Shown: piece by piece, positions 501-25,103 of the stretch
How positions within the stretch are numbered: the first letter of the stretch is position 1
How the letters are laid out: each line of letters starts with the position of its first letter
Origin: Minisyncoccia bacterium
GTDB taxonomy: Bacteria > Patescibacteriota > Minisyncoccia > Phycocordibacterales > UBA9973
Reading direction: 5' to 3'
Assembly: GCA_965656375.1 (NCBI GenBank)
Contig: CBFHKH010000001.1
Span: 409,319-473,318 of the forward strand
DNA length: 64,000 nucleotides
Made by a program: the position numbers and the translations under genes
Notes under the pieces: generated by a model
Database searches by the model: none
What the model was told of the DNA's origin: nothing
What the model saw: the letters and a program-made list of their open reading frames with translations, nothing else

Positions 501-501
501 A

Positions 502-535
502 AAAGCGAATCCAGAGGATTCGCTTTTTTGTTTTT
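502..535 (+). terminator. Rho-independent terminator
   Basis: 11-bp perfect stem aaagcgaatcc/ggattcgcttt with a 3-nt loop, followed by a T-run, immediately after the stop codon. Confidence 0.65.
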
Positions 536-544
536 AACATAATT

Positions 545-919
545 TTATTGCAAAGAAACAATCGTGGTTCCCTTCTTAATGAAGAGCGATTGTATACCGC
601 TCATTTTTGTTTCTCTCCATATTGCTTTTTTGTTTCCAAGCTTTATGATTTGATATAACGCAATTCTGGTCTGTCCGTTTTCCTTGTATATAAATACATT
701 TGGGTTCTTTATGCTTAAGCCAAATAACCCGGGAACCAGTGACATATCATCTTTTGCGCTTTTCATATCAGAATAATTGGAAAAAGGAGTTCCTGAGATA
801 GTATTCACAAGGTCTGTAACAGAGTGAATATCTTTTTCCAGAAATTCAATTTTTACGTAGTTTTGAGAAAAACAAAATAACGGCATTATGCAAAGAGCAA
901 GAATTAATAACTTTTTCAT
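545..919 (-). CDS. Hypothetical small secreted protein (N-terminal signal peptide)
   Basis: ORF with hydrophobic N-terminus MKKLLILALCIMPLFCFS; no recognisable domain. Confidence 0.45.
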   Translation of the reverse strand: MKKLLILALCIMPLFCFSQNYVKIEFLEKDIHSVTDLVNTISGTPFSNYSDMKSAKDDMSLVPGLFGLSIKNPNVFIYKENGQTRIALYQIIKLGNKKAIWRETKMSGIQSLFIKKGTTIVSLQ

Positions 920-1016
920 TTGTTAGGTAGTTTGGTTATAAATAGTGATTCTTATTGTATATTATACCATTTTAAACCTAAATAGTCAAACTCCTATACT
1001 ACAAATATTTGATAGT

Positions 1017-1047
1017 AAAAAACCCTCTCAATTGAGAGGGTTTTTTA
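1017..1047. terminator. Bidirectional terminator hairpin
   Basis: ccctctcaattgagaggg stem-loop flanked by an A-run and a T-run. Confidence 0.55.
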
Positions 1048-1057
1048 CTTGAGAAAC

Positions 1058-3967
1058 TTAGTTATTTATAAAAGCAAATTCAGTCTGATACATATGGGGT
1101 GGTAACAAAGCAATATTAGTTCCTCCGGTTGTAAGCATTCCATTCGTGAATGTTCTTATCTCACGAAGAGACACTCTATAATGGCTATTTTGAGCTGATG
1201 GAGTTATAAGGGTGACAGTAAGAGTGAAATGCTTTGTAGCCCCATCATCAAGACGATATCCATTCCCTTCGATTATTGCATTAGGTGACGTCAGCGTAGA
1301 AGAAGCGATACTTGTAGTGTCTGCGATTGCAGGATTCTGCGCCGTATTAAAGACATAGGCAAGCGCATTGGTTCCAGTCGGCGTAACAGCTAGCTCGACT
1401 GTTTGTCCTATGTATTTCGTCGCCCCGACAGATGAGACTGTCAGTGGAATACTGTATGTAACCTGGGTAACATTTCCATTATTTGTAACTGTACTAATAA
1501 TCGATGTACCCATAGCAACATTTACAACACTGGTATTAAAGTATTGCGTCTGTGAGTGAGCAAATCCTGCTCTTTGCGACGGAAGTAGTTGGTCGCCATT
1601 TTGATCTAGAACTGAGAAATTTGCCGGTGTTAGTACGCTCTCATTCGTGATACCAGATATGAGACTGAACCCACTTGGGTAATTGCCACCGAGCGCTTTT
1701 ATATCCACCGCTACAGTGAATGACACTGTCGTTCCAACAGGCACAATAGTATTCCATAGATTGCTAAAGATGAACCCACATGTACTTGTACAAGAAGGGT
1801 TGTTTGTAATGACCCCTCCAACTACATCATACCCCATTCCGCCATCCATAGAATCTATCAAATCATTGCCCCGATATAATTTTATTGTATTTATAAGTGA
1901 AGATATGTTGTATGGGCCAGTAGTTATCATCACAGGAATCTTGCGTAAATCAAGATCAGATTCTTCGGCAGTAACGGTAAATTTAAGAAGAGGGACATTC
2001 TGGGTGCTTGCGGTATTGCTGACGAGTGTAGTCCTACTTGGCGGGGTCGTCGGATCAGTAGCTACTATTACTCGAGCCAGGGCGATACTGAAATTTTGAT
2101 TAGACTGATCGAGTGGTCCATATGAAGGTCCCGATGTTGGATATATTCTGACTTTGAAATTATTGCCGTAGACCATTTGCGGCCATGTAGTTGTATTTGG
2201 CAACGATACAGTCTCTGCTCCATCATTGATAGTGGTTGCCAGATGTCGAACAAGATCAGGACTACCAGTACGCGACATCACGAGATCGATAGACATCTGG
2301 GTACTCGCTGGAATCAAGCATGTCCTCCAACTAACCGGCATCTCAACGGGAAGGAAGTGTTCCCCGCCGTTTGGTGAAAGTACATCTACGGCAGGAACGG
2401 TCGTTGAATCATCAGGATTGCAAAATGTAGGAGTGATTATTACTACGCATGGCTGACCAGTCGTAACGCTGAATCCTTGGCTTGTGACGCAGCCCTGAGG
2501 TACGTTCGGATAAACTATCGTCCAGTTACATGGCTGACCGGTTGTCATGCTATAGCCATTCGCTGAATTACAGCCTGCTATCCAAGTAACAGGATTGGTA
2601 CATGGTATGCCAGTCAATGGACTATATCCGAGGAATGGGGATACACATCCTGCGGGAGCTGTTACTCCCCCTAATATAAACGGCGCATCACTAAAATCTA
2701 TTGCTAAGGTGTTATTATTGTAATCTGCTACACGTATAATGATTTCATAAAGTCCTGGTGCATAATTAGATGGAATCGTGTAGGAAAAATTCGATCCACT
2801 CGGCCCTCCTACTGGAGCACCACCAACAGCAGTACCTCCGGCTGGATTCAGAGAATGTAAAGTAATCTCAGCTCCAATGTTCGGATCGATACCTGACGCG
2901 GTCCACGAAATATTTATTGTTTGCCCTGGTTGGTAAACTTCCCCGCCATTTGGAGAAGTGACAGTAATAGAAGGAGCAAGAGAGTTAATGCGAAATGTTG
3001 TATTAGATTCATCCCAAAGATCAGTCGTGTTGTCAGCTGCGAGAGCGCTCAAGCGTATCTTGTAATTTCCTGTTATTAAGCCAGAGTAGGCACTTGTAGG
3101 AATCGGAAAGGTTTCCTCTCCATCATTCGGAGTAGAAATCGTTGGAATATTAGGATCATCGGTAAAATATATTACTGTATTGTTATCTACATTAAAGAGC
3201 CCGATGATTGCATCGTGGTTTAATGGAACATCGCAGCTTGTCCATGTTACTGTCATCTGCTGGCCTGCAGTGTATACTTCGCCACCATTTGGAGAAATAA
3301 CAGTGATGCCTGGCGTATCAGTACTATCGCAACCAGTAGGGTTGTTTTGGGTTTGAATCGTAAAAAAATTATCTGAAAGATCCATTAAATTAGGATTGCC
3401 TCCTATTGCTATGTATATTTTATAGTAATTGCCAGATGCCAATGGATGTCCGCCTTGGTAACCAATGAGAGGAAGTGTCACTATTTCACTGCCATCATTA
3501 GGAGTGATGGTTATTTCATCCCTTTCATCTGTTAACGAAGAATAAAGGGCGATAAATGCAGTAGAGCTTGAAGAATATGCACTATTCCACCTAATTTCAA
3601 TCTGCTGTCCTGGCTGATAGATTTCTCCGCCGTTTGGAGAAAGTACAGTTACTGGAGGAGTTCCAGTTGAATCAAAGTCTGCAGAAGTAGCCGTGGTATT
3701 TTTTTCATCTTGAGGTTGCTGCTCTTCGAATTTCTGAGATTCTATCAAATCAGTCGTTGCGATAGATGCATCCTTTTCTGTAATGCTATCGATGTCTAGT
3801 CTTGCATCATTAATACTAGCTGTTACATCTTGCATTACTTCATTTTGCTCAGCTTTTGCACTACTCATCTCAGTTTTATATGAAAGGGATGTATCTGCCA
3901 AAACTGCAGAAGTCGACATTACAAACATGTTATAGACTATAAACGCCCCAAGAAGGATTTTTTTCAT
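1058..3967 (-). CDS. Large secreted repeat protein (969 aa) with four SPNGGE(V/I)Y..GQ repeats and three Cys-bounded G(Y/F)S.TTGQPC repeats
   Basis: Signal peptide MKKILLGAFIVYNMFVMSTSAVLA. Internal tandem ~100-aa repeats each contain SPNGGE; a Cys-rich triple repeat lies in the middle. Function unknown. Confidence 0.8.
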   Translation of the reverse strand: MKKILLGAFIVYNMFVMSTSAVLADTSLSYKTEMSSAKAEQNEVMQDVTASINDARLDIDSITEKDASIATTDLIESQKFEEQQPQDEKNTTATSADFDSTGTPPVTVLSPNGGEIYQPGQQIEIRWNSAYSSSSTAFIALYSSLTDERDEITITPNDGSEIVTLPLIGYQGGHPLASGNYYKIYIAIGGNPNLMDLSDNFFTIQTQNNPTGCDSTDTPGITVISPNGGEVYTAGQQMTVTWTSCDVPLNHDAIIGLFNVDNNTVIYFTDDPNIPTISTPNDGEETFPIPTSAYSGLITGNYKIRLSALAADNTTDLWDESNTTFRINSLAPSITVTSPNGGEVYQPGQTINISWTASGIDPNIGAEITLHSLNPAGGTAVGGAPVGGPSGSNFSYTIPSNYAPGLYEIIIRVADYNNNTLAIDFSDAPFILGGVTAPAGCVSPFLGYSPLTGIPCTNPVTWIAGCNSANGYSMTTGQPCNWTIVYPNVPQGCVTSQGFSVTTGQPCVVIITPTFCNPDDSTTVPAVDVLSPNGGEHFLPVEMPVSWRTCLIPASTQMSIDLVMSRTGSPDLVRHLATTINDGAETVSLPNTTTWPQMVYGNNFKVRIYPTSGPSYGPLDQSNQNFSIALARVIVATDPTTPPSRTTLVSNTASTQNVPLLKFTVTAEESDLDLRKIPVMITTGPYNISSLINTIKLYRGNDLIDSMDGGMGYDVVGGVITNNPSCTSTCGFIFSNLWNTIVPVGTTVSFTVAVDIKALGGNYPSGFSLISGITNESVLTPANFSVLDQNGDQLLPSQRAGFAHSQTQYFNTSVVNVAMGTSIISTVTNNGNVTQVTYSIPLTVSSVGATKYIGQTVELAVTPTGTNALAYVFNTAQNPAIADTTSIASSTLTSPNAIIEGNGYRLDDGATKHFTLTVTLITPSAQNSHYRVSLREIRTFTNGMLTTGGTNIALLPPHMYQTEFAFINN

Positions 3968-4031
3968 AAATCAATAATTTATTAATAGGCCTTTATCTTA
4001 CCATTTTTTAATCATTTTGTCAATAATAAAA

Positions 4032-4062
4032 ATACCCTGTATCAACAGAGTATTTTTATTTC
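4032..4062. terminator. Bidirectional terminator downstream of rpsR
   Basis: ataccctgtatcaacagagtat hairpin (8/9 bp) between an A-run and a T-run. Confidence 0.45.
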
Positions 4063-4262
4063 TATTTTGCGATATAAGGTAGAAGTCCCATGAAGCGAGC
4101 ACGCTTGATAGCTTCTGCAAGCTTACGCTGGTTCTTTGCAGTTACATCAGTGCGACGTCGAGCAAGCATACGAGCGCTCGGTGCAAGGAACTTTCGGAGC
4201 AATTCGACATCTTTATAGTCGATATGCTTTATATTGTTTGATGAGAAATAATCTTGTTTCAT
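4062..4262 (-). CDS. rpsR: 30S ribosomal protein S18
   Basis: [28 protein letters not shown] signature; conserved position after ssb. Confidence 0.9.
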
Positions 4263-4289
4263 AAATTCTAGTTAATAGTTAGTAATTCT

Positions 4290-4745
4290 TTAAAATGGAA
4301 TATCTTCAGCATTGATCTGTTCGTCTGGATATTCGATCGTATCGAGTGAATCATCTCCTGCCTGGGCAGGCAAGTCCTGCGGAGTAGTTCGAGGAGCGCT
4401 TGATCCCCCGCCCATACCACCACCGCCAAACTGAACTCGATCTGCGATAACTTCTGTACGATATTTCTTTGTACCAGTACCTGCATCATCCCAGGATCGT
4501 GTCTGCATGCGGCCTTCGATCATAACCTGCGAGCCCTTCTTCATATACTGGGCCACAGTCTCTGCCTGGCGACCGAATACAACGATATTGTGGTAATCCG
4601 CTGCTTCTTGCTTTGCACCGTTTTTATCTTTCCAGACACGGTTTGTCGCAATAGAGAAGCTGCATACCTTGATCCCTGAAGGAATCGCTTTGAGTTCCGG
4701 ATCACGGGTGAGGTTACCTATGAGCAATGCTTTGTTTAAATACAT
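4290..4745 (-). CDS. ssb: Single-stranded DNA-binding protein
   Basis: OB-fold N-terminus, Gly-rich linker and acidic C-terminal tail ending DIPF; rpsF-ssb-rpsR synteny. Confidence 0.9.
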   Translation of the reverse strand: MYLNKALLIGNLTRDPELKAIPSGIKVCSFSIATNRVWKDKNGAKQEAADYHNIVVFGRQAETVAQYMKKGSQVMIEGRMQTRSWDDAGTGTKKYRTEVIADRVQFGGGGMGGGSSAPRTTPQDLPAQAGDDSLDTIEYPDEQINAEDIPF

Positions 4746-4775
4746 AGTTTTGATGAGTTATGACTAATAGGTTTA

Positions 4776-5273
4776 TTATACTACAAGCGCATCGATCTCC
4801 TTGTCTATAACTTCCTCGTTGATTGGGCCAGCATCTTCACTCTTTTGTACTCGGCGCTTTGCTCCATCAGTCTTGCCATATGGGCGTTTTGAAGACATAG
4901 TATTCTCGCGAACAGTCTTGATCATAAGGTATCGAACAAGCTTTTCGTTCTTATCGAGCATATCTTTGATGATACGAGCGGCTTCTGTCGTACATTCAAA
5001 TTTTACCCAACCAAAGTACCCATACGAGAACTTCTGTTTTTTGTTTGCAATTGAACGAGTCATCTCGTATGCAAGCTCCATCATTTTTGGATATTCATCT
5101 GAGATGAATGTAACTCCCTGCTCTCCGAGCATATCCTTAAATGTTGTGACTTCACCGCCGAGATTCTCCTCAGCTACTGTCGGTACCATAATGTACCCTA
5201 CTTCATACACACTAACCTTTCCTCCTTTTTCCTCACCTACTACTTCTACACTTTCTTCTTTTGCTTTTGCCAT
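4776..5273 (-). CDS. rpsF: 30S ribosomal protein S6 (with N- and C-terminal extensions)
   Basis: YEVGYIMVP...LAYE... pattern of S6, and its position at the head of the rpsF-ssb-rpsR operon. Confidence 0.75.
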   Translation of the reverse strand: MAKAKEESVEVVGEEKGGKVSVYEVGYIMVPTVAEENLGGEVTTFKDMLGEQGVTFISDEYPKMMELAYEMTRSIANKKQKFSYGYFGWVKFECTTEAARIIKDMLDKNEKLVRYLMIKTVRENTMSSKRPYGKTDGAKRRVQKSEDAGPINEEVIDKEIDALVV

Positions 5274-5466
5274 AAAGATAGCTTTTAGCTATTAGCAGAC
5301 TAGCTACTAGCAACCAAATAATATTGTTAATTCATAATAAAGTCTTGCTATGGACCCAATTAGACCTTTTTGGGTGTACCGGCTTCAGGGCCGGGACAAA
5401 CAAGACCTGCCTGCGATAGCCAGGCGTGCGAATATACTAACAAAAATAAGGCTTTATGTCAAAATC

Positions 5467-8400
5467 TTACTGTCCTTGTTCCCCACCTGATGGGAGGGCT
5501 TCTTGGCCTCCAGTATCATCGCTTGATGAACCAGTGGTATCTTCAGTTGAACTTGTATCAGTAGTATTACTGTCTGTACTTTCTAGAGATCCGTCGGTAT
5601 TTCCGGTGTTTCCATTTTGAGCATCCCCAGTATCAGTATCTCCATTACCACCAGATCCACTGAAAGTAGTCTGCCCACCGAGAAGTTGTTCTAGTTGATC
5701 TCCTGTTATACAGATATCACTTCCATCTCCTTTCTTCACACAAAGTTCTTCAGTGTGAATTCTCTTTGCGAACAAGTTTTCAATACCGTTACTTATATCT
5801 GCCAAGAATTGTTTGACGAGCGAACCAAGTGAATTTGAATTTGTCGTATCGAGTGAGGAGAGGCCATTCACCTTAAGATTGAGTTCTTTGAGTGCTCCAA
5901 TAGCATATGGCATGAGCCCTCCCATACTCAGGAATTTCTTTTGTGTTCCATCAATCCACAAATGATCAGTCACCAAATCTGGGAATTGTTCGGCAACTTC
6001 TTGGGCAATGAAGCCATATTGAAGCGGCGATGTCGATCCTTCAGCAAGCCAGTGATATGAGACTGGATTGAGTGCTGAGATCTTTGTAAGAAGATCCGCA
6101 GTTGAGAGAGATGCAATATCTTTTTTGAGAGTACGGTCTGATCCACATGTCGGAGCGCCGGAGTTTGCGTTGAAATCACAGGTAGAGTTTGCATCTTCAA
6201 GTCTAAGGAGAGTGGTACCGTCGGTGATTAAAGAAGAACCTACATGAAGAGTGAAAGCAGGAGCAGCTTGAGCAATACCAATTTTACCAGAGGCTGTTGG
6301 CGCAATCGAAGGATTTCCTGATGTAGTTGCATAGGTACCCGTACCAAAAAGCACACCGCCGATATTGATAGCATTCGCCGTAGCATTAGGCAGTGAGATG
6401 TTTGTACCGATGATGATGTTGTTTGCTCCTACATCATTACCTGTAAACTGCGACCCCGTATTGAACCCAAAGAAATTTGAAAATGATCCACTTGCAGTAT
6501 TTTGACCTGCCTGTCTTCCAAAGAAGTTAGAGTTATTTGCGCTTGCGGCACTCCGTCCGGCATTGTTACCAAAGAAGTTTGAGTTTGCTGCACTCGTTGC
6601 TTGATACCCTGCAGAGTTACCAAAGAAATTGGACTGCGTCGCACTTCCCGCTGTATTACCAGAAGAGTTACCAAAGAAGTTAGAATTCGCGGCACCAGTT
6701 GCATTGAGTCCGGCCGAGCTTCCAAAGAAGTTTGAGTTATTAGCGCCACTTGCGCCATTACCTGCAGATGGACCGAGGAAATTGGATGTGTTCGCTCCTG
6801 TTGCTCCAAAGCCCGCTGATGGTCCCAGGAAGTTCGAGTTATTAGCACTTGTTGCGCCCTGTCCCGCCTGCCTGCCGATGAAATTTGATTGTGTCGAGCT
6901 TGTCGCATTGAGACCAGCATTGTCTCCGATGAACAGTCCGTAGTTTACGGTCGCATGAGTTGTGTTGTTACGTACAAGAGTATTACGAACAGTTGATGGA
7001 CTAAAGAATAAATCTGTACCATCGTACTCAAATGCACCAGCTTCTACTGCAGTGAGATTGGTCCCCGAAGTAAGCTTAAGAGGTGCGGTGTTTGCGGTAG
7101 CCGTGCCTGCTTTCAAATGCAAAACTGCTGTTGGAGAAGTTGGACCAATACCAAGATTGCCTCCGTTAAGAAGCGTCATGAGCTGCGTATTGTTTGCATT
7201 GTTATTAAACGCAATCGAAGTTGTACCACTAATGAACTGCGGTGAACCTGCAGCAACTCCAATACGGAGACCACCATTCGTGCCATTCATCACACTGAGA
7301 GTGCCATTCACATCAAGTGTATATCCAGGTGTTGTGTTATTGATTCCCACCCGGTTGTTTGCTCCGTCCCATGTCATAGTATTAAAGCTAGGACTTCCCC
7401 AAGTCCAAACATTCGTATTGCTCTGATAAAAGCTATAGTAATCCGACACAGTTCCCAAGCGGAGCGCATTGGTACCAATAATCTGGAGCTTTGTCGCTGG
7501 ACTTGTTGTCCCAATCCCTACATTTCCATCTGCTCGTATTGAGAGGCGATTTGATCCTCCGCTTTCGAAACGAGCAATATAGGAAGCAGTATCAGTTGCT
7601 GCTGTTTTGACTAACAAACCATTACGAACAGTAGTATTTGAATCTCTATTTTCAATAGCAGCTACATATCCTGCGCCTGAACTTGACCACGAAAGTGAAT
7701 CGAGCGTTGTGAGAAGTCCAAATCCGGACGAATCATATACGTTAGCATTGTAGTTAGTAAAATTTGCATATGGGTTTGTTGTATTAATACCTACCATGCC
7801 ATTGAGGGTAATCAGCTGATTCCCGACAGTTGCATTTTGCTGGATATAGATAGGACTCCCGTTTTGGTCGCCAGCGTAACTACCTCGATCGATTGAGTTT
7901 ATAAATACTTGGTCAGACGCAGTCCCGCTATACCATCCACCATATGATCCGATAAAGATGTTTCTATTTCCTGTTGTATTGTTTTCTCCAGCAAGATATC
8001 CAAGATAGCTGTTGTTGCTTCCAGATGATGTTGAATGACCAACATGGTACCCGATACCTGTGTTTGAAGAACCAGATGTCATATACCGAAGTGATGCGCC
8101 TCCGACAGATACATTGTAACTTCCTGTTGGACTCGTTGTAGTGTTACGCTGAGCATCTGCACCGACAGCGGTGTTGTAACTCCCGGTCGTATTGCCTGCA
8201 AGCGCAGAATTTCCAATTGCAGTATTGAATCCTCCGGAAGTATTTCCGCCAAGAGCTTGATATCCGACACCGACAATACCTGATGCAGTATTATTCCCGA
8301 GTGCAGACAATCCAACAGCAACATTGTAGTTGCCATTTGTCGTTACGAGAGATGATTTCATACCGATTGCGATATTTCCATAGCCACTCGTGAGAGCATT

Positions 8401-9414
8401 GAGTGCTGCATCACCAAGCGCGATGTTGTTTCCTCCGCCAGTAGCAGTTAAATTACCGGCATTCCTTCCAAGGAAAATATCGAGTCCAGTGATAAGACCT
8501 GAAGTGTAATAGGTAGGATCATCTCTTAGTATCAACATACTCTCACCAGTAGGAAGCTTCACATATTTACTCGTAGGTGTTACTCCGCTTGCAAGCGCTG
8601 GCAAAATGACACTTCCGTCTATCGTAATATCACCGACTACATGAAGCGCAGTTGCAGGAGTATTTGTACCGATACCAAGCCTGTTAGTCGCATTATCCCA
8701 GAATAGATTTGTATTATCCTCCTCGAGGCCGCTTGTACCTTGAAAAGGAACAGAGCCAAGAGTAAACGACGGATTAATAGTGCCCACAACTGTACCTATG
8801 ATATTACCCGTAATAGTGAGATCTCCTCCGACAGTTGCATCTCCTACTACAGAGAGGGTTTTTGTGTCAGTACGCTCGTACAGTCTATCCGCAAGATCAG
8901 TCACTTTATTGCTTGCAGAATCAAGAACAGTGAGAATCTGAATATCGAAAAGCTTCTTAGAAACAAATTGAGATGCATCGAAACTCCCTCCACTCCCTCC
9001 TCCTGATTGATAAACTGTGGTAGTCGGATATGTATTCGTAACATACGTGACTGGTGAAGATCCTGTCACATACACAGTCTTTTGTGATGACACAAGTGAT
9101 GGAGGTATTGATACTGATTTCTTAGAATTTGTAGGGCGAGGCGAGACGTGATTTATATCGAGAGTTGTAACATGTATCGGTATATAAAAAATAGATTCAA
9201 TCACGTTACTGAGTGGCTCGATAATACGAGTCATATATGTGTTCCAAATGGAATTGCCGAGATCAAGAACAGGATTTGAAGCAAAAGCGACGGTCGGAGA
9301 TAAAGCAATCAGTAAAAGGATGCTCGAAAGTAGTTTAGAAGATCGACGTTTAATTATATTTTGAAATTTACTTTTTACCATATGATAATTGGATAGAAAA
9401 CACCCAATATACAC
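5467..9414 (-). CDS. Giant secreted tail-fibre-like protein (1315 aa) with Gly/Asn-rich NSNFFG.SAG repeats, a C-terminal Peptidase_S74 intramolecular-chaperone domain and an acidic low-complexity tail
   Basis: Signal peptide. At least 10 tandem NSNF(F/L)G.(S/N)AG repeats. CGSDRTLKKDI...GFIAQEV...P.LV matches the endosialidase/tail-spike chaperone (S74) domain at about nt 5844-6160. Confidence 0.85.
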   Translation of the reverse strand: MYIGCFLSNYHMVKSKFQNIIKRRSSKLLSSILLLIALSPTVAFASNPVLDLGNSIWNTYMTRIIEPLSNVIESIFYIPIHVTTLDINHVSPRPTNSKKSVSIPPSLVSSQKTVYVTGSSPVTYVTNTYPTTTVYQSGGGSGGSFDASQFVSKKLFDIQILTVLDSASNKVTDLADRLYERTDTKTLSVVGDATVGGDLTITGNIIGTVVGTINPSFTLGSVPFQGTSGLEEDNTNLFWDNATNRLGIGTNTPATALHVVGDITIDGSVILPALASGVTPTSKYVKLPTGESMLILRDDPTYYTSGLITGLDIFLGRNAGNLTATGGGNNIALGDAALNALTSGYGNIAIGMKSSLVTTNGNYNVAVGLSALGNNTASGIVGVGYQALGGNTSGGFNTAIGNSALAGNTTGSYNTAVGADAQRNTTTSPTGSYNVSVGGASLRYMTSGSSNTGIGYHVGHSTSSGSNNSYLGYLAGENNTTGNRNIFIGSYGGWYSGTASDQVFINSIDRGSYAGDQNGSPIYIQQNATVGNQLITLNGMVGINTTNPYANFTNYNANVYDSSGFGLLTTLDSLSWSSSGAGYVAAIENRDSNTTVRNGLLVKTAATDTASYIARFESGGSNRLSIRADGNVGIGTTSPATKLQIIGTNALRLGTVSDYYSFYQSNTNVWTWGSPSFNTMTWDGANNRVGINNTTPGYTLDVNGTLSVMNGTNGGLRIGVAAGSPQFISGTTSIAFNNNANNTQLMTLLNGGNLGIGPTSPTAVLHLKAGTATANTAPLKLTSGTNLTAVEAGAFEYDGTDLFFSPSTVRNTLVRNNTTHATVNYGLFIGDNAGLNATSSTQSNFIGRQAGQGATSANNSNFLGPSAGFGATGANTSNFLGPSAGNGASGANNSNFFGSSAGLNATGAANSNFFGNSSGNTAGSATQSNFFGNSAGYQATSAANSNFFGNNAGRSAASANNSNFFGRQAGQNTASGSFSNFFGFNTGSQFTGNDVGANNIIIGTNISLPNATANAINIGGVLFGTGTYATTSGNPSIAPTASGKIGIAQAAPAFTLHVGSSLITDGTTLLRLEDANSTCDFNANSGAPTCGSDRTLKKDIASLSTADLLTKISALNPVSYHWLAEGSTSPLQYGFIAQEVAEQFPDLVTDHLWIDGTQKKFLSMGGLMPYAIGALKELNLKVNGLSSLDTTNSNSLGSLVKQFLADISNGIENLFAKRIHTEELCVKKGDGSDICITGDQLEQLLGGQTTFSGSGGNGDTDTGDAQNGNTGNTDGSLESTDSNTTDTSSTEDTTGSSSDDTGGQEALPSGGEQGQ

Positions 9415-9504
9415 CTATAGTATAGTATATTTCTCAGTAAAATAAAATCCAAGGAAGTGGAGAAAGCGTTATGTAACAATCCAAAAGTACCAAGCAGCTG
9501 CTAT

Positions 9505-10344
9505 TTAAATATTCCAAACGCGTTTCGCGTTTGCGATCAGAGTTTGCGCAACTTCACTCTCGGGCAAGTCTTTAATGAAAGCTATTTTTTTAACTACTTC
9601 GGAGACATAGAGCGGTTCATTGCGTTTACCTCTGTGGGGTACTGGAGTTACATATGGGGCATCAGTCTCAGACATGATCATATCGATAGGTGTAGCACGA
9701 ATAACTTCATCATAACTTGATGCAAAGGTAATAACGCCTGTAAAAGAAAGCGTAAAACCAAAATCAACATATGCTTTTGCTATTTCTAGATCCCCTGCAA
9801 AAAAATGCACATCACCTTTTACTTTCGCGTGCTGCTTAAGTATATCTAATGCATCCGAATACGCATCGAATTCTTTATTATCTGGATTATTGCGGATATG
9901 AAGCATGATCGGCTTCCCTACTTCATTTGCAATCTCAATCTGCCCTATAAATGCCTTCTTCTGTCTCTCTATTGATTCTGTATCACACCTAAAATAATCG
10001 AGCCCGCATTCACCCACCCCGACAACTTTTGGGTCGCGAAGGAGCTCCAAATACTTTTCTCTATCAAATACTTCTCCGCGAGAAGTAAACTCAACTCCTC
10101 CTTCACCGAGCTCTTTTTCGTCATGAAACGACGCACCAGTATGAATCGGGTGAAGGCCAATAATGGCAAAGACTCCCTCCTTATATTGATGCGCTATTTC
10201 TACAGCTTTTCGTGATGTATCAATCTGCGTGCCAACATTGATGACCCATGTGTCGTTATCTAGAGCACGGCGAATAACTACATCTCGATCTTCGTCGAAT
10301 GCTTTAAAATTCACATGTGAATGGATATCTATATATTTAGGCAT
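9505..10344 (-). CDS. tatD: TatD-family metal-dependent DNase/hydrolase
   Basis: IDIHSHVNF...GLHP...GECGLDY...HFFAG...ETDAPY motifs. Confidence 0.85.
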   Translation of the reverse strand: MPKYIDIHSHVNFKAFDEDRDVVIRRALDNDTWVINVGTQIDTSRKAVEIAHQYKEGVFAIIGLHPIHTGASFHDEKELGEGGVEFTSRGEVFDREKYLELLRDPKVVGVGECGLDYFRCDTESIERQKKAFIGQIEIANEVGKPIMLHIRNNPDNKEFDAYSDALDILKQHAKVKGDVHFFAGDLEIAKAYVDFGFTLSFTGVITFASSYDEVIRATPIDMIMSETDAPYVTPVPHRGKRNEPLYVSEVVKKIAFIKDLPESEVAQTLIANAKRVWNI

Positions 10345-11787
10345 TTAATCTTTGCGTAAGAAAAGTGGAGCTTCAGGCTTTTTATTTTCTTTGATCAATT
10401 TCTTAAGAGTTACATTTGTTTCTGGAAGTATCGGATTAAGCATTCGAGCTATCTGGTACAAGCGAAGCACGAGATCTGTGATAAGTTCTTTTCCTTTACT
10501 TTCATCAACTTTTACAACCTTGAACGGTTCAGTCTCTTGGATAGTCTTATCGAGTTCTGCGATTTCATTCCATATATAGTCAGCTGCCTTTTTTATATCG
10601 TACGCTTCATACATTTCAAAATAGTCCGCAAAATCTGATTTCTCAGGAATTTCTGGACATCTATCTAAATACTTCTCAGAAAGAGTTAGAATTCGTGAAG
10701 CCAAGTTTCCTAAACCGTTTGCAAGGCCTGAATTGTAGGCTTCTTTGAAGCGCTCTAGTGTAAATGGTGAATCTTCGAACGAAGATACTTCTCTAAGAAG
10801 GAAGTAGCGAAGTGCATCGGTGCTATATTCTTCTACGATATCTTTTGGATCAACCACATTACCGAGAGTCTTCGACATCTTGATACCTCCATCAGCTGTG
10901 ATGAAACCGTTCACGACTATCTGGTGTGAATTGGGCACATCTGCAGCCATGAGCATTGCCTGCCACATCGCAGATTGAAAACGAGTATTGTCCTTACCAC
11001 AATATTGCGTTGGCGTTCCCTCTATCCAATATTTTTTGAAATCCCCACCTTCGTTGGGCCAGCCAAGCGTATTGATATAATTGGTAAGCGCATCAAACCA
11101 CACATACATAACATGGTCTCTATCATCTGGTACCTCTATTCCCCACGGCATTTTGGTCTTGAGTCGAGAAATTGAGAAATCTTGAAGACCTCTTTCAACA
11201 AATGCTTTTATTTCATTGAAACGAAAATCCGGAACAACGAACGTCGGATTCTCTTCGTAGAATTTTAGTAACCGCGAACCGAACTCGCTGTATTTGAAAA
11301 AGTAATTCTCTTCTTCTATGAGCTCAAGTTCAATCCCCGGATGATCTGGGCAGTGACCATCTTCATTGAGCTCTGAATCAGTTTTCTCACTCTCACAACC
11401 GACACAGTATTTAGTTTGGTATGCCTTTTTATAGATGTATCCATTATCTCGAACTCGGACCCAAAATTCTCGGGCAGACTCTTCGTGGCGCACATCTGTC
11501 GTACGAATAAAGTGAATATCATCAGTGATACCAAATATTTTAATACTCTCCTTGAATGTCTCAAATCCCTGATCAACAAAAGCTTGCGTATCAATGCCTT
11601 TCTCTTTTGCCTTTTCATAAATCTTCATTCCATGTTCATCAGTACCAGTATTAAAAAATACATCATACCCAGCAAGCTTCTTGTATCGTGCGATCGCATC
11701 AGCACGAACAAATTCAAGCGCATGCCCCATATGAAGTGGCGCATTTACGTATGGAAGAGTAGTAGTAAGATAAAAGGTCTTCTGCAT
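10345..11787 (-). CDS. metG: Methionyl-tRNA synthetase (short form)
   Basis: HMGH (HIGH) and KMSKT (KMSKS) class-I motifs. The start is chosen at MQKTFY (ATG at 11785-11787) rather than the upstream in-frame extension. Confidence 0.9.
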   Translation of the reverse strand: MQKTFYLTTTLPYVNAPLHMGHALEFVRADAIARYKKLAGYDVFFNTGTDEHGMKIYEKAKEKGIDTQAFVDQGFETFKESIKIFGITDDIHFIRTTDVRHEESAREFWVRVRDNGYIYKKAYQTKYCVGCESEKTDSELNEDGHCPDHPGIELELIEEENYFFKYSEFGSRLLKFYEENPTFVVPDFRFNEIKAFVERGLQDFSISRLKTKMPWGIEVPDDRDHVMYVWFDALTNYINTLGWPNEGGDFKKYWIEGTPTQYCGKDNTRFQSAMWQAMLMAADVPNSHQIVVNGFITADGGIKMSKTLGNVVDPKDIVEEYSTDALRYFLLREVSSFEDSPFTLERFKEAYNSGLANGLGNLASRILTLSEKYLDRCPEIPEKSDFADYFEMYEAYDIKKAADYIWNEIAELDKTIQETEPFKVVKVDESKGKELITDLVLRLYQIARMLNPILPETNVTLKKLIKENKKPEAPLFLRKD

Positions 11788-11788
11788 A

Positions 11789-12856
11789 TTAGTTTGTACG
11801 TGCAACAATTTTCTTCTTTTCAAGGTCATCGAGAAATTCGAGCAATGCAACTGCACAAGGGATCGCAAGTATTACTCCCCAGAATCCAGCAAGTGTAGCA
11901 CCGATGAGGATCGAAATAATCACAACGAGCGGAGAAATACCTGTTGCTTTCTTTACGATAAGCGGATAGATAAGGTATGTCTCGAATTGTCCGAGGACAA
12001 GGTACATAAGTGCTGTAATCGCAGATACGGTAACTCCACCATCAATATAGGCAAAAATGATTCCAGGAATTGCAGCGAGAATCAGGCCAAATGGAACAAG
12101 CTCGGCAATCACAACCAAGAGTGCAAGCACAAGTGAATATTTCACCCCGATAATTGTAAGCCCGAGGTATGTGAGCATTCCGACAATTACACCCATGAGC
12201 ATTTGCCCCTGCATCCACAAACCGATCTTGTGCTCAGTACGAAGCCAGAGTCCGATAATGTACTCTTCGTGAGCAGCCGGAGTGATGATGCGCAAAAAGC
12301 TCTGAATACCATGTTCGGTGATAGACAAATAGAACGAGACGATCATAATCAAAAGAAGATTCAGCACTCCACCAAACGCCGCACCGAAAATATTAAAGAA
12401 TCCTCCGGAAAGACTAGTTACCAAGTTCTGTGTACTTTTAATAACATCGGCAATTGATGCATTATGTGAGATCGTAGATACTACACCTTGTGCTCCTGAA
12501 ATAGTCGTCGGTTGAAATGTATTTAGAATACTCGTATCGGGAATATACTTGCCAAGTTGTGCGACAAGAGTCGACATTTCCTGGATAAAGACCGGGACAA
12601 AGACAGAAAGCAATCCTACAATGATGGCAAACGTGCAGAAATAAATCAGAAACACAGCAAGAGTACGATTTTTGATATACCGCTTCATTTTTTTGACCGC
12701 GAATCCTATAAAAGAAGCAACGACAATGGAAGTAAGTATAATGAGAATGATATTTGTGAGCTTCACTAGAGCCATAAATACCACTCCAAAGAGAATGACT
12801 CGTATGATAGATCCGTTCGAGATAGAAACAGTCTGGTTCTTAATATTTTGTTCCAT
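11789..12856 (-). CDS. AI-2E family transporter (PerM/UPF0118)
   Basis: About 8 TM helices and family-typical length; its stop abuts the metG start. Confidence 0.75.
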   Translation of the reverse strand: MEQNIKNQTVSISNGSIIRVILFGVVFMALVKLTNIILIILTSIVVASFIGFAVKKMKRYIKNRTLAVFLIYFCTFAIIVGLLSVFVPVFIQEMSTLVAQLGKYIPDTSILNTFQPTTISGAQGVVSTISHNASIADVIKSTQNLVTSLSGGFFNIFGAAFGGVLNLLLIMIVSFYLSITEHGIQSFLRIITPAAHEEYIIGLWLRTEHKIGLWMQGQMLMGVIVGMLTYLGLTIIGVKYSLVLALLVVIAELVPFGLILAAIPGIIFAYIDGGVTVSAITALMYLVLGQFETYLIYPLIVKKATGISPLVVIISILIGATLAGFWGVILAIPCAVALLEFLDDLEKKKIVARTN

Positions 12857-12889
12857 AGGGGTATTTTAGCACATTCCGATAACCTCTAC

Positions 12890-14161
12890 CTAGAACTTCA
12901 AGATCTTCTCAAATGGCTTCTTGTCTTCAAATGGACCTATGAGAGCGAGGTTTAGATGCTTTGTTTTGAATATGTGTTTTGCCATTTTTCGTATATCGTG
13001 TGCGGTAACCTTCTGTATCCCTTTTATTTTCTCATCGAGCGTTTTTAGCTCACCTTTCATAAGTTCCTGCATACCATAAAAGTTTGCGATATCGTCTGTC
13101 GCTTCGAGTGAAAGTTTGGTATTACCAATGATGAAAGATTTGACCTTTTCGAGTTCTTGCTCGCTTACTTCTTCATGTACGAGTTTGTTGCACTCTTTGA
13201 GAATTTCCTCGATGACTTCAATAGTTCGTGTATTACTTACTCCAGCTGATATCTGAAATGCACCATGATCAAGTGATGCATCGTTATGTGCGCGTACATA
13301 GTATGCAACACCAAGCTCCTCGCGAAGCTTGATGAAAAGCCGTGAACTCATTCCTGCACCAAGGAGGGCGGAGAGGACTGAAAGGATAACATTCCTCTTG
13401 TCAGAAAGCGGAAATGATCTCGTTCCAAGTACAAAATGAGTTTGATCAGTGACTTTGTGACTTAGCAGTATGCTCGGTTTTGTCTGTGTGTCTTTTGTCT
13501 TTACCTTTCCCACTTTCTTCCCAGTATGAACGGAAGCAAAATGCTTTGACACTTCTTTCTCTACATCACTTGCTGTAATACTACCAGCCACGATGATGAC
13601 CGTACTTTCTGCCACATAATGAGACGCTTTATATTTTACAAGATCGTCGCGAGCCATGCCTTTAACTCGTTCTCTCGTACCAGCGATATTGCGTCCTGCG
13701 GGCTGATCACCGTAGAGAACTTCTTGGAAAAGATCTTGTACATGACTCTGAGGCATATCTTCGTACATATTGATCTCCTCGACAATAACGCCTTTTTCTT
13801 TTTCCATTTCTTTCTCCGGAAATGTAGAGTTTAAATAAATATCAGAAATGATTTCGAAAATCTGTCTAAAACTCTTAGAATCGCTTTTTGCATAGTAGCC
13901 TGTCACCTCGTGCCCCGTAAATGCATTGTATTGACAGCCAAGCGCATCGAGTTCATGCGAAATCGCTTGGGCAGAGGGACGCTTAACAGTACCCTTGAAG
14001 CACATATGCTCAAGAAAATGCGAGATCCCATTTACTTCCTTTGCTTCATAGTTACTCCCCGTCCCTACGAGGACGAGTACAGTAACTGTCGGATTATCCT
14101 TCATTGGTATTGTCACTATCCGCAAGCCATTTTTTAATTTCTTTTTTTTAGGTTTTTGCAT
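12890..14161 (-). CDS. M16-family (insulinase/pitrilysin-like) zinc peptidase
   Basis: Inverted zinc motif HFLEH (HxxEH) near the N-terminus. Confidence 0.8.
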   Translation of the reverse strand: MQKPKKKKLKNGLRIVTIPMKDNPTVTVLVLVGTGSNYEAKEVNGISHFLEHMCFKGTVKRPSAQAISHELDALGCQYNAFTGHEVTGYYAKSDSKSFRQIFEIISDIYLNSTFPEKEMEKEKGVIVEEINMYEDMPQSHVQDLFQEVLYGDQPAGRNIAGTRERVKGMARDDLVKYKASHYVAESTVIIVAGSITASDVEKEVSKHFASVHTGKKVGKVKTKDTQTKPSILLSHKVTDQTHFVLGTRSFPLSDKRNVILSVLSALLGAGMSSRLFIKLREELGVAYYVRAHNDASLDHGAFQISAGVSNTRTIEVIEEILKECNKLVHEEVSEQELEKVKSFIIGNTKLSLEATDDIANFYGMQELMKGELKTLDEKIKGIQKVTAHDIRKMAKHIFKTKHLNLALIGPFEDKKPFEKILKF

Positions 14162-14164
14162 ATA

Positions 14165-14623
14165 TTACTTTATATCATATCGTATGAGTTTTTCACCTGT
14201 ATTACCAAGATGTATCTCACCTGTAAATGTTTCCCTTTTTACCACCTTCGGAAGCCAGATTTTGTCACTTGTCCACATCTTCTCATATGGTAGTTTGGAA
14301 ACTTCGAACCATGCCGGGATCATCTCTTCAGTTTCCACAGGTTCACCTAGAAATTTATCAATTCGGTATACGATAACCCGTTGATTCCACTCTTCTTTAT
14401 CGTCAAAGAAAAAATCAATATACCCGAGTTCAGTACATTCGTCTTTATTTGCTATTACACTGCACTCCTCTCTTACTTCACGTATAACTGCATCAAGCGG
14501 CGATTCATCTTCTTCAAGTTTTCCACCGTATCCATTCCACTTTCCTACTCCAAAACTTCTTCTCTTCATACCAAGCAGCATTTTGTCTCCTCTGAATAAA
14601 TATGCGAGAGTGGTGATTTTCAT
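14165..14623 (-). CDS. NUDIX hydrolase (MutT-like)
   Basis: Nudix box GKWNGYGGKLEEDESPLDAVIREVREECSV. Confidence 0.8.
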   Translation of the reverse strand: MKITTLAYLFRGDKMLLGMKRRSFGVGKWNGYGGKLEEDESPLDAVIREVREECSVIANKDECTELGYIDFFFDDKEEWNQRVIVYRIDKFLGEPVETEEMIPAWFEVSKLPYEKMWTSDKIWLPKVVKRETFTGEIHLGNTGEKLIRYDIK

Positions 14624-14677
14624 ATTACTATCAGTAATTATTTACTTAAAGAAATAATCTATTCTATGCATGAAAAA

Positions 14678-15622: not shown

Positions 15623-15623
15623 A

Positions 15624-16943: not shown

Positions 16944-16947
16944 TGTA

Positions 16948-18855: not shown

Positions 18856-18884
18856 CATATAAGAAGTATTATAGCACAAGAATA

Positions 18885-20484: not shown

Positions 20485-20485
20485 A

Positions 20486-21127: not shown

Positions 21128-21131
21128 CCCT

Positions 21132-25075: not shown

Positions 25076-25097
25076 AGTGTTATAAAATCCCGCAAAT

Positions 25098-25103
25098 TAT
25101 ATT
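25098..25103 (-). promoter_or_regulatory. Possible proximal -10 (TATAAT) for ileS
   Basis: TATAAT on the minus strand about 22 nt upstream of the ileS ATG; no clear -35. Confidence 0.3.

What the first reader, a model, noticed from the sequence alone, without database searches (positions are those of the whole stretch)
5467..9414. 1315-aa cellular tail-fibre-like protein with Peptidase_S74 intramolecular-chaperone domain and an extra acidic tail, in a housekeeping neighbourhood
The protein has a signal peptide, then beta-helix-like Gly/Asn repeats. One class is NIAIG..AL.....G.YN.A.G; the other is 10 or more tandem NSNF(F/L)G.SAG units. Then comes CGSDRTLKKDI...VSYHW...GFIAQEVAEQFPDLV at about nt 5844-6160. 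This is the autoproteolytic C-terminal chaperone of phage tail spikes and endosialidases, which normally cleaves at the conserved Ser and is released. Here it is followed by about 125 aa more, including a Thr/Asp/Gly-rich acidic tail. There is no phage context: the neighbours are rpsF-ssb-rpsR and tatD/metG. This suggests a host surface fibre (adhesin, S-layer-like or episymbiont attachment) that has co-opted the phage trimerisation/chaperone module.
Basis: partly seen in the sequence, partly recalled or inferred. Interest (0 to 1): 0.55.

Follow-up and report, generated by a model that had tools for sequence, protein, structure and literature searches.

The report
Self-cleaving surface fibre of a Saccharibacterium
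This is a chromosomal gene of a tiny parasitic (Saccharibacteria/Patescibacteria) bacterium for a long phage-tail-fibre-like surface fibre whose self-cleaving assembly domain carries an extra, previously undescribed conserved end-piece, and whose middle is swapped between strains, making it a candidate host-recognition protein rather than a prophage remnant.

Summary
ORF 5467..9414(-) most likely starts at the ATG at 9381 (1304 aa). It encodes a Sec-signal protein with two classes of Gly/Asn repeats, five 'capping-loop' motifs and a Peptidase_S74 intramolecular-chaperone (IMC) domain (E 4.9e-15). The Ser1092/Lys1097 SDxxxK dyad is intact. About 125 further residues follow.

The context is housekeeping, not phage. 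The gene sits between tatD and rpsF at a locus that is syntenic in two related Saccharibacteria assemblies. Flanking genes there are 66-90% identical, but the fibres share only shuffled blocks.

The general idea, a cellular fibre using the phage S74 module, is already known from the Bdellovibrio MAT fibres (2024) and from NCBI's 'tail fiber domain-containing protein' annotation.

What is new is the 'extra tail'. It is a conserved module of about 55 aa (helix, then a hairpin with two invariant Cys, then a helix) followed by a disordered acidic tail. The module occurs in at least 2,057 protein clusters and almost always lies directly after an IMC. Every named carrier is a Patescibacterium. It was not found in phage S74 proteins, in the PDB or in Pfam.

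Best reading: a secreted, trimeric, self-cleaving, mosaic adhesion fibre with a lineage-specific enlarged propeptide. This is a new variant of a known kind, of moderate interest.

The parts
5467..9381 (-). Fibre gene from the probable ATG start, including the stop codon. The mechanical ORF extends to the GTG at 9414.
   Evidence: The 1304-aa product P0001 is identical. Gene calls at orthologous loci start at the equivalent Met.
9280..9381 (-). Sec-type signal peptide, aa 12-45, with the predicted cleavage site AFA|SN.
   Evidence: Read from the sequence. 80 of 101 full-length family members have an N-terminal hydrophobic stretch. No SignalP run.
8629..9279 (-). Lineage-restricted N-terminal region, aa 46-262. 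It holds a P/S/T linker, a Gly linker, a probable coiled coil and the first capping loop LGIGTNTPATALHV. It is the presumed cell-proximal or anchoring end.
   Evidence: 51% identical to the syntenic L002 orthologue and 69% to L095. Only 12 weak hits among 5.8 billion proteins.
7780..8457 (-). Repeat class 1, aa ~320-545: N-[ITV]-[AS]-[ILV]-G beta-roll or beta-helix units of 16-20 aa.
   Evidence: PHROG tail spike 4636 E 1.2e-16, and virion structural proteins.
6925..7557 (-). Central shaft, aa 620-830, with three capping-loop motifs at aa 632, 689 and 754.
   Evidence: The motifs fit the MAT consensus VG(G/N)xxxPxxxL (PMC10769870). phmmer hits to Bdellovibrio Bd2133 (8OND, E 3.5e-4) and to 8OJN.
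6430..6897 (-). Repeat class 2, aa 840-995: nine in-phase 17-aa SNF[FLI]G units plus degenerate flanking units.
   Evidence: Tandem Repeats Finder reports a 51-nt period. This block is 53% identical to a block of the 3721-aa probable paralogue P0168.
6142..6327 (-). Pre-cleavage stalk, aa 1030-1091, with the fifth capping loop (IGIAQAAPAFTLHV) and the Cys1079/Cys1090 pair.
   Evidence: Conserved in orthologues (67%). C1090 is invariant in alignments A1 and A4.
5845..6141 (-). Intramolecular chaperone / Peptidase_S74 domain, aa 1092-1190. Catalytic Ser1092 is nt 6139-6141 and Lys1097 is nt 6124-6126.
   Evidence: PF13884 E 4.9e-15. The dyad is invariant in 50/50 sequences. The AF2 core has pLDDT 83-97. 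Foldseek: 7DC3 E 3.9e-6, then 3GW6 and 3GUD. PDB profile hits 8JOV, 6F45, 7DC3, 8HQZ and 3GUD.
5677..5844 (-). Post-chaperone extension module, aa 1191-1246: an amphipathic helix, a beta-hairpin carrying invariant Cys1225 (nt 5740-5742) and Cys1235 (nt 5710-5712), and a short helix.
   Evidence: Conserved in relatives. 2,057 representative clusters at E<=1e-3. Hairpin and helix pLDDT 85-91. No Pfam match at E<=10. No PDB or phage counterpart.
5470..5676 (-). Acidic low-complexity tail, aa 1247-1315. Net charge -13 and predicted disordered.
   Evidence: Composition. pLDDT below 50. The same kind of tail follows the module in the family: median 77 aa, 98% net acidic, no TM segment and no LPxTG.

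Best explanation
The gene encodes a secreted, homotrimeric, phage-tail-fibre-like surface fibre of a Saccharibacteria (Patescibacteria) cell. It has the same design as the S74 class of Bdellovibrio MAT fibres.

Proposed mechanism:
1. The chain is exported by Sec and the signal peptide is removed after Ala45. This step is inferred.
2. Three chains are brought into register from the C-terminal end by the intramolecular-chaperone (S74) domain, which templates the upstream beta-helical shaft. The domain, its dyad and its fold are shown; trimerisation is inferred from the family.
3. Ser1092, with Lys1097, then cuts the chain between Gly1091 and Ser1092. This releases a 224-aa, 23-kDa, pI-4.2 propeptide and leaves a mature subunit of about 107 kDa (aa 46-1091). 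This step is inferred from the family.
4. The lineage-specific N-terminal region holds the fibre on the cell, and the shaft or tip binds a ligand on the host bacterium. This step is inferred.

The propeptide is enlarged relative to phage and Bdellovibrio versions. After the IMC comes a conserved helix, Cys-hairpin and helix module, then a disordered acidic tail. I take these to be an accessory to extracellular folding. The module would extend and lock the trimeric chaperone, with the two invariant Cys forming a cross-strand disulfide. The acidic tail would keep the aggregation-prone chain soluble or hold it near the envelope until the trimer forms. Both pieces would be discarded with the chaperone.

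The gene occupies a fixed chromosomal locus, but its internal blocks are exchanged between strains and with paralogues, as in phage tail fibres. That pattern fits a specificity determinant under diversifying pressure.
For: S74 domain: Pfam E 4.9e-15. SDxxxK is present and invariant in 50 diverse members. The AF2 model has pLDDT 84 and matches only IMC structures: MyRF ICA 7DC3 at E 3.9e-6, endosialidase 3GW6 and phi29 gp12 3GUD. There are 288 viral S74 structure hits.

Fibre body: phage tail-spike and tail-fibre PHROGs. Similarity to the Bdellovibrio MAT structures 8OND and 8OJN. Five capping-loop motifs fit the published MAT consensus (PMC10769870).

Secretion: an N-terminal signal peptide. 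The protein has only four Cys, arranged as two close pairs.

Cellular, not phage: housekeeping flanks. The same AI2E-metG-tatD-fibre-rpsF-ssb order recurs in two other assemblies.

Mosaicism: flanking genes are 66-90% identical, while the three syntenic alleles share only different blocks. Window vs L002 share aa 1-261 and 1043-1250. Window vs L095 share aa 12-548 and 1030-1245. L095 vs L002 share a central block that is absent from the window. A 3721-aa protein from a contig of the same length (840,184 bp) shares the 17-aa repeat block and the C-terminal module.

Extension: 2,057 clusters carry it. 135 of 155 inspected sequences have an IMC directly upstream, and most of the rest are N-terminally truncated fragments. 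The tails are 98% net acidic, without a TM segment or a sortase motif. The Bdellovibrio precedent for S74 self-cleavage and surface display is in PMC10769870.
Against: Nothing here shows trimerisation, cleavage, surface display or binding; all four are inferred from homology. Only monomer models could be made.

The N-terminal region could not be compared with the conserved MAT N-terminal domain, and no anchoring mechanism is evident.

The segment just upstream of the cleavage site is the receptor-binding cleft in endosialidase, T5 pb1 and Bd3182. Here it is conserved between alleles (67%), while the variable part is central. Where specificity resides is therefore unclear.

The role assigned to the extension and tail is a guess. 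A module conserved this strongly, with two invariant Cys and one invariant Asn, could have a function of its own after release.

The similarity to MAT structures is marginal (E 3.5e-4) and lies in low-complexity-like sequence.
Confidence: 0.6

Rival explanations
1. Prophage or phage-remnant tail fibre (or tailocin fibre) that happens to lie among housekeeping genes.
For: The repeats and the S74 domain are shared with phage tail fibres and spikes.
Against: No phage gene lies within about 10 kb on either side in the window, in L001 or in the syntenic L002. The gene holds the same position between tatD and rpsF in three assemblies whose flanks are 66-90% identical. It has a Sec signal peptide, which a virion protein assembled in the cytoplasm would not need. 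Its C-terminal extension was found in 0 of 80 viral S74 loci and in none of 42 GenBank phage hits.
Confidence: 0.03
2. The fibre is made as described, but the released or retained C-terminal piece (IMC, Cys module and acidic tail) is functional in its own right. It could be a cap that masks the binding cleft until contact, a cation- or cell-wall-binding retention element, or the part that docks the fibre to the envelope, so that the N-terminus would be the distal end.
For: The module is conserved as strongly as the chaperone itself: invariant N1209, C1225 and C1235 in 50 sequences. It is present in at least 2,057 clusters. The tails are almost always acidic and are sometimes followed by further domains such as an Ig-like domain or a second Cys motif. 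MyRF shows that S74 domains can be followed by functional C-terminal parts (7DC3 is the best structural match).
Against: There is no TM segment, LPxTG or known wall-binding domain in 155 tails. The tails are low-complexity and variable in length and sequence, which is typical of spacers or solubility tags. The catalytic dyad is invariant, so the piece is expected to be cut off.
Confidence: 0.25
3. A structural envelope component (S-layer-associated spike or general biofilm/surface adhesin) with no role in recognising the host bacterium.
For: Nothing ties the protein to a host ligand. S74 'tail fiber domain-containing proteins' also occur in free-living Bacteroidota.
Against: Block-wise replacement of the shaft at a conserved locus, and multiple paralogues sharing cassettes, are the signature of specificity determinants. 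The experimentally studied cellular relatives act in prey recognition (PMC10769870).
Confidence: 0.15
4. Trimeric autotransporter adhesin. JGI gives this name to several homologues.
For: YadA-head-like N-x-A-I-G repeats, and JGI names on several hits.
Against: No YadA anchor or any other TAA domain appears in Pfam at E<=1. The C-terminus is an S74 chaperone plus a soluble acidic tail, not a beta-barrel. From established knowledge, Patescibacteria are generally considered to lack an outer membrane for a TAA anchor.
Confidence: 0.01

Closest known systems
Bdellovibrio bacteriovorus MAT (mosaic adhesive trimeric) fibres, S74 subgroup, e.g. Bd3182 (Caulton et al. 2024, PMC10769870)
   Same: A chromosomal cellular gene. 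A signal peptide. A shaft of about 1,000 aa with capping loops of consensus VG(G/N)xxxPxxxL. A C-terminal S74 chaperone with SDxxxK. Several paralogues per genome and cassette mosaicism. An organism that lives by attaching to other bacteria. Direct sequence similarity to Bd2133 (8OND) and to 8OJN.
   Different: By the construct and cleavage-site numbers the paper gives, Bd3182 has about 140 aa from its cleavage Ser782 to residue 922. Here there are 224 aa, because a conserved Cys module and an acidic tail follow the chaperone. Homology of the N-terminal ~130-aa MAT domain was not shown. The phylum and envelope type differ. There are no experimental data. The paper's list of MATs in other phyla does not include Patescibacteria.
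Phage tail-fibre and tail-spike intramolecular chaperone domains: K1F endosialidase (3GW6), T5 L-shaped fibre pb1 (8HQZ here; 4UW8 as cited in PMC10769870), phi29 gp12 (3GUD), S16-type long tail fibre (6F45), 8JOV
   Same: Same domain family (PF13884), same Ser/Lys motif and same fold. Shared repeat types in the shaft.
   Different: The phage proteins lack a signal peptide, are encoded among virion genes, and end at the last chaperone helix. All 42 GenBank phage hits stop at or before about query residue 102 of 168, and all 80 IMG/VR hits stop by about residue 119 of 165 (most by 110). The extension HMM hit 0 of 80 viral loci, and a direct pattern scan of IMG/VR found none.
Myelin regulatory factor (MyRF) ICA domain (7DC3)
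   Same: It is the best structural match of the predicted chaperone (E 3.9e-6). Its stalk carries the capping-loop motif, as noted in PMC10769870. The S74 domain is internal, with further sequence after it.
   Different: MyRF is a eukaryotic membrane-bound transcription factor. From established knowledge, what follows its domain is a TM helix and a luminal domain, which are unrelated to the Cys module and acidic tail here.
NCBI PGAP 'tail fiber domain-containing protein' of Patescibacteria
   Same: Three extension-bearing relatives are already named this way in Candidatus Paceibacterota MAGs, and an S74 homologue from Ca. Nomurabacteria carries the same name. The gene class is therefore annotated in databases.
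   Different: This is an annotation label only. No paper in the searched library describes these proteins in Patescibacteria or their C-terminal module.

Membership tests
Peptidase S74 / intramolecular chaperone auto-processing domain | Match to PF13884 above the gathering score | tested here: met
   56 bits against a cut-off of 22, E 4.9e-15, aa 1092-1149, profile positions 1-58 of 58.
Peptidase S74 / intramolecular chaperone auto-processing domain | Catalytic Ser-Lys dyad in an SDxxxK motif at the start of the domain | tested here: met
   S1092-D-R-T-L-K1097. Ser and Lys are invariant in 50 of 50 diverse relatives.
Peptidase S74 / intramolecular chaperone auto-processing domain | IMC fold | tested here: met
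   The AF2 model has pLDDT 84, with the core at 83-97. Foldseek finds only IMC structures with prob 1.00: 7DC3, 3GW6 and 3GUD.
Peptidase S74 / intramolecular chaperone auto-processing domain | Trimerisation-dependent autoproteolysis that releases the domain | not testable with these tools
   This needs a trimer model and an expression experiment (wild type against S1092A).
MAT fibres (Bdellovibrio type) | Signal peptide and cellular, non-phage genomic context | tested here: met
   Signal peptide read from the sequence. Housekeeping and syntenic context.
MAT fibres (Bdellovibrio type) | Beta-helical shaft with capping loops V-G-G/N-pi-x-x-P-x-x-x-L | tested here: met
   Five motifs at aa 246, 632, 689, 754 and 1045. 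Sequence hits to 8OND (E 3.5e-4) and 8OJN (E 5e-3).
MAT fibres (Bdellovibrio type) | Conserved beta-rich N-terminal domain of ~130 aa directly after the signal peptide | not tested
The N-terminal region here is lineage-restricted, with 12 weak hits.
MAT fibres (Bdellovibrio type) | Surface display and a role in binding the prey or host cell | not testable with these tools
   Requires experiment.
Prophage / phage tail fibre | Encoded next to phage structural or morphogenesis genes | tested here: not met
   None within about 10 kb on either side in the window, L001 or L002.
Trimeric autotransporter adhesin | C-terminal YadA-type beta-barrel anchor | tested here: not met
   No such Pfam hit at E<=1. 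The C-terminus is S74, extension and acidic tail.

The most novel reading that the evidence does not exclude
Patescibacteria as a group build their host-attachment fibres with a lineage-specific version of the phage chaperone. In it, the self-cleaving S74 domain is fused to a disulfide-locked mini-domain and a polyanionic tail. This composite adapts triple-beta-helix assembly to folding outside a cell. The mosaic fibres at fixed loci, such as tatD-fibre-rpsF, are the main determinants of which host bacterium an episymbiont can attach to.
Probability: 0.25. Interest if true: 0.7.

Novelty: new variant of a known kind. Interest (0 to 1): 0.48.

Why it matters
How ultrasmall episymbiotic bacteria (Saccharibacteria and other Patescibacteria) recognise their host bacteria is largely open. 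The papers retrieved here implicate type IV pili in the episymbiotic association.

This locus offers a concrete, testable second candidate. It is a phage-like fibre whose shaft cassettes are exchanged between closely related strains while the neighbouring genes stay conserved.

The finding also defines a large conserved sequence module (at least 2,057 clusters at 50% identity) that no searched library describes. The module sits behind the self-cleaving chaperone and may show how a virion-assembly device was adapted to secretion.

If the fibre idea is wrong, the result is still useful for annotation. These genes should not be counted as prophage signals in Patescibacteria genomes.

Tried and rejected
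1. Prophage origin. Rejected on context and synteny.

2. The 'extra 125 aa' as an artefact of the short Pfam model. Rejected. PDB and phage matches all end by profile or query position ~107-119, and the rest is additional.

3. A suspected relationship between the extension helix (aa 1196-1216) and the N-terminal helix after the signal peptide (aa 52-76), prompted by weak sub-threshold hits. Tested on 80 full-length members against shuffled and internal controls, it is no better than chance.

4. The extension as a known domain. No Pfam hit in 12 members at E<=10, no NCBIfam hit, no PDB sequence or fold match beyond the IMC, and no BFVD match covering it.

5. A profile for the central shaft to strengthen the MAT link. 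Too few good local homologues were available, so this was abandoned.

6. Word-index search with the extension profile. Only 4 fragments were returned, which is uninformative. The exhaustive search was used instead.

7. The first AF2 model, with 13 sequences, was poor (pLDDT 56). It was replaced by the 50-sequence model.

8. Looking up the genomic place of the probable paralogue P0168. It is not on record.

9. The first genome scan with the 12-sequence alignment failed for lack of a conserved stretch. It was repeated with 4 sequences.

10. The source genome itself was not among the species representatives. The organism is therefore inferred from the closest syntenic MAGs, which are labelled Candidatus Saccharibacteria.

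Full report
**1. The observation**

The minus-strand ORF 5467..9414 is real: 1315 codons from a GTG. The identical protein in public data (P0001) and the gene calls at two orthologous loci begin at the ATG of codon 12, nt 9381, giving 1304 aa. The stretch between the GTG and that ATG looks like promoter or leader sequence. I number residues from the GTG.

Residues 12-45 (MVKSKFQNIIKRRSSKLLSSILLLIALSPTVAFA|SN) have the three regions of a Sec signal peptide. I read this from the sequence; no predictor was available.

- N-[ITV]-[AS]-[ILV]-G units lie at about aa 330-500. They match phage tail-spike and virion-protein PHROGs at E about 1e-16.
- Nine SNF[FLI]G units sit at an exact 17-residue period, aa 843-979, with degenerate units on both sides.

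Pfam finds one family, PF13884 Peptidase_S74, at aa 1092-1149 (E 4.9e-15, 56 bits against a cut-off of 22). The profile begins exactly at the Ser of G-S1092-D-R-T-L-K1097.

The statement that about 125 further residues follow is therefore correct. The last 69 residues are G/T/S/D-rich, carry a net charge of -13 and contain no Lys or Arg.

**2. Context and organism**

The downstream genes are rpsF, ssb and rpsR, followed by a 969-aa Ig-like protein. The upstream genes are tatD, metG, an AI-2E transporter, an M16 peptidase, a NUDIX protein and more housekeeping genes. No gene within about 10 kb on either side has a phage function.

The window ends 5.4 kb to the left of the gene. The syntenic locus L002 continues there with a pseudouridine synthase, an MFS transporter, RNase J and a solute-binding protein.

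The closest loci in one-genome-per-species GTDB data are MAGs labelled 'uncultured Candidatus Saccharibacteria bacterium', followed by Nomurabacteria, Paceibacteria and other Patescibacteria. L002 has the same gene order, M16-AI2E-metG-tatD-fibre-rpsF-ssb, with flanking proteins 66-86% identical to the window's. A third assembly, L095, has the order AI2E-metG-tatD-fibre-rpsF-ssb with flanks 77-90% identical.

P0001 is recorded on an 840,184-bp contig, a size in the range expected for a complete Saccharibacteria genome (this comparison rests on general knowledge). The gene is therefore a resident chromosomal gene of a Saccharibacteria lineage, not a prophage gene.

**3. What the protein is related to**

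Sequence search of the PDB returns two structures from the Bdellovibrio bacteriovorus fibre study: Bd2133 (8OND, E 3.5e-4) and 8OJN (E 5e-3).

That study (PMC10769870) defined the MAT (mosaic adhesive trimeric) fibre family:
- The proteins are cellular and are annotated as phage tail fibres.
- They have a signal peptide, a conserved N-terminal domain and a trimeric beta-helical shaft with capping loops of consensus V-G-G/N-pi-x-x-P-x-x-x-L.
- They end either in an S74 chaperone with SDxxxK or in other tip domains.
- For Bd3182, self-cleavage at the Ser and its loss in a Ser-to-Ala mutant were shown.

The present protein has five capping-loop motifs that fit the consensus: LGIGTNTPATALHV (aa 246), VGIGTTSPATKLQI (632), VGINNTTPGYTLDV (689), LGIGPTSPTAVLHL (754) and IGIAQAAPAFTLHV (1045).

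Homologues are also already labelled 'tail fiber domain-containing protein' by NCBI in Patescibacteria MAGs.

The supplementary list of MATs in other phyla in that paper names Oligoflexia, a PVC-group predator, Micavibrio, FCB-group bacteria and Omnitrophica, but not Patescibacteria. I found no paper in the searched library that describes such fibres in Patescibacteria.

**4. The chaperone domain**

In an alignment of 50 diverse relatives, Ser1092 and Lys1097 are invariant.

An AlphaFold2 monomer model built on that alignment has a mean pLDDT of 84, with 83-97 across the chaperone core. Foldseek against the PDB returns only intramolecular-chaperone structures with probability 1.00: the MyRF ICA domain (7DC3, E 3.9e-6), the K1F endosialidase chaperone (3GW6) and phi29 gp12 (3GUD). 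Against predicted viral structures there are 288 hits, all of them S74 tail fibres and the like.

A sequence profile of the domain also finds solved phage fibres (8JOV, 6F45, 8HQZ, 3GUD) and MyRF. Membership of the S74 family is met on every feature that can be tested in silico. Trimerisation and cleavage cannot be tested here.

**5. The 'extra tail' is a conserved, undescribed module plus an acidic tail**

Aligning the C-termini of relatives shows that the sequence after the last chaperone helix is not random. The consensus reads roughly L-S-S-L-D-x(4)-N-S-L-G-S-L-I-K-x-F-L-A-D-x-x-N-G-I-x-x-L-F-x(5-15)-T-x-x-L-C-V-x(2-7)-T-C-I-T-x-x-Q-L-x-x-L-L. One Asn (N1209) and two Cys (C1225, C1235) are invariant.

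The model predicts three elements:
- an amphipathic helix, aa 1196-1209;
- a beta-hairpin whose two strands (aa 1223-1227 and 1233-1237) place the two Cys opposite each other;
- a short helix, aa 1238-1246.

The hairpin and last helix have pLDDT 85-91. The loop between the Cys varies from 4 to 9 residues across the family while the Cys never vary. That pattern fits a cross-strand disulfide; the disulfide itself is an inference.

An exhaustive profile search of 1.84 billion representative proteins finds the module in 2,057 clusters at E<=1e-3 and in 505 at E<=1e-10. In the listed hits it almost always lies 50-180 residues from the C-terminus.

Of the 155 sequences I could inspect, 135 have an S74 domain directly upstream, with a median of 90 residues from domain start to module start. 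Most of the remainder are N-terminally truncated fragments or have a divergent chaperone such as S-T-R-D-T-K.

What follows the module is, across the family, a low-complexity tail:
- Its median length is 77 aa.
- It is rich in T, P, S, D, E and G and almost free of K, R and aromatic residues.
- It is net acidic in 98% of cases.
- No hydrophobic segment and no LPxTG motif occurs in any of the 155 tails.

The module has no Pfam match in 12 members even at E<=10 and no NCBIfam match. No PDB sequence match reaches past the chaperone; all stop at profile position 107 or earlier out of 157.

Phage proteins do not show it:
- All 42 GenBank phage hits stop at or before about query residue 102 of 168, and all 80 IMG/VR hits stop by about residue 119 of 165, most by 110.
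- The module HMM hits 0 of 80 viral loci but 7 of 14 cellular loci.
- A direct pattern scan of 2.9 million viral contigs found nothing.

Every extension-bearing protein or locus that carries an organism name is a Patescibacterium: Saccharibacteria, Nomurabacteria or Paceibacterota. S74 loci from Rikenellaceae, Flavobacteriales and Buchananbacteria lack it. The named sample is small, about a dozen, so 'Patescibacteria-specific' is a working statement.

**6. Mosaicism**

The three alleles at the same chromosomal position share only blocks.
- Window vs L002: aa 1-261 (51%) and 1043-1250 (67%), with nothing alignable across the ~780 residues between.
- Window vs L095: aa 12-548 (69%) and 1030-1245 (43%).
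- L095 vs L002: the N-terminus (47%), a central block of about 400-440 aa (52%) that the window lacks, and the C-terminus (36%).

P0002 is a 2194-aa relative at a different housekeeping locus. It shares aa 172-644 at 79% and the C-terminus at 64%.

P0168 is a 3721-aa protein recorded on a contig of the same length as P0001's (840,184 bp), so it is very probably a paralogue in the same genome. It shares the 17-aa repeat block (53%) and the S74-plus-extension end (34%) but has a different N-terminus.

This is the cassette exchange typical of phage tail fibres and of MATs, and it contrasts with the conserved flanks.

**7. Mechanism proposed**

Shown: the domain content, the dyad, the fold, the secretion signal, the chromosomal context, the conservation of the extension and the mosaicism.

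Inferred from the family: Sec export; C-terminal nucleation of a homotrimer by the chaperone; cutting before Ser1092; release of a 224-aa, 23.4-kDa, pI-4.2 fragment; and a mature subunit of 106.6 kDa, aa 46-1091.

Further inferred:
- The N-terminal lineage-specific region holds the fibre on the cell.
- The fibre binds the host bacterium.
- The extension and tail assist folding outside the cell, by bundle extension, disulfide locking and a solubilising polyanion.

An unresolved point is where specificity lies. In endosialidase, T5 pb1 and Bd3182 the binding cleft is just upstream of the cleavage site. Here that segment is conserved and the centre varies.

**8. Rivals**

Prophage origin and trimeric autotransporter are essentially excluded, the latter by the absence of an anchor and the former by context. 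Two rivals remain open. In one, the C-terminal piece has its own function as a cap, a retention element or a docking element. In the other, the fibre is a general envelope or biofilm component.

**9. Verdict**

The new elements are the Patescibacteria setting, the fixed-locus mosaic alleles and, above all, the conserved post-chaperone module with its acidic tail. This is a new variant of a known kind, of moderate interest.

Noticed in passing
window 21563..25075 (-): The 1170-aa isoleucyl-tRNA synthetase (TIGR00392, E 3.7e-267) carries a complete histidine-phosphatase domain (PF00300 His_Phos_1, aa 502-684, E 3e-31). The insert splits the catalytic tRNA-synt_1 match into two stretches. This is an unusual insertion for an aminoacyl-tRNA synthetase.
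   Followed up: partly
window 1058..3967 (-): A 969-aa protein with a Kre9/KNH-MG2-type Ig-like domain lies directly downstream of rpsF-ssb-rpsR. Its counterpart in the syntenic locus L002 is only 385 aa, and 41% identical over the C-terminal third. It may be a second fast-evolving surface protein next to the fibre.
   Followed up: partly
P0168 (3721 aa; not in the window, recorded on a contig of the same length, 840,184 bp, as the window's fibre protein): A giant probable paralogue of the fibre in the same genome, with the same S74-extension-acidic-tail end. Its tail and those of several relatives carry a further small Cys motif, CPNIDGDQAxVPDxMHxDxxNNCV.
   Followed up: partly
whole window 1..64000: No tRNA gene (ARAGORN) and no Rfam family at gathering threshold in 64 kb of densely coding sequence.
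   Followed up: no
P0024 (1857 aa, Candidatus Nomurabacteria): A homologue annotated as a tail fiber domain-containing protein has a MerR/HTH_17 DNA-binding domain at its N-terminus (aa 18-65) and an S74 domain at aa 1515-1572. It is either a mis-called start or fusion, or a MyRF-like arrangement of a DNA-binding domain released by S74 cleavage.
   Followed up: no
window 5434..5462 (-): A near-consensus promoter-like site (TTGACA, 17 nt, TG-n-TAGTAT) lies just after the fibre stop codon and upstream of rpsF. This suggests that the ribosomal-protein operon is transcribed independently of the fibre gene.
   Followed up: no
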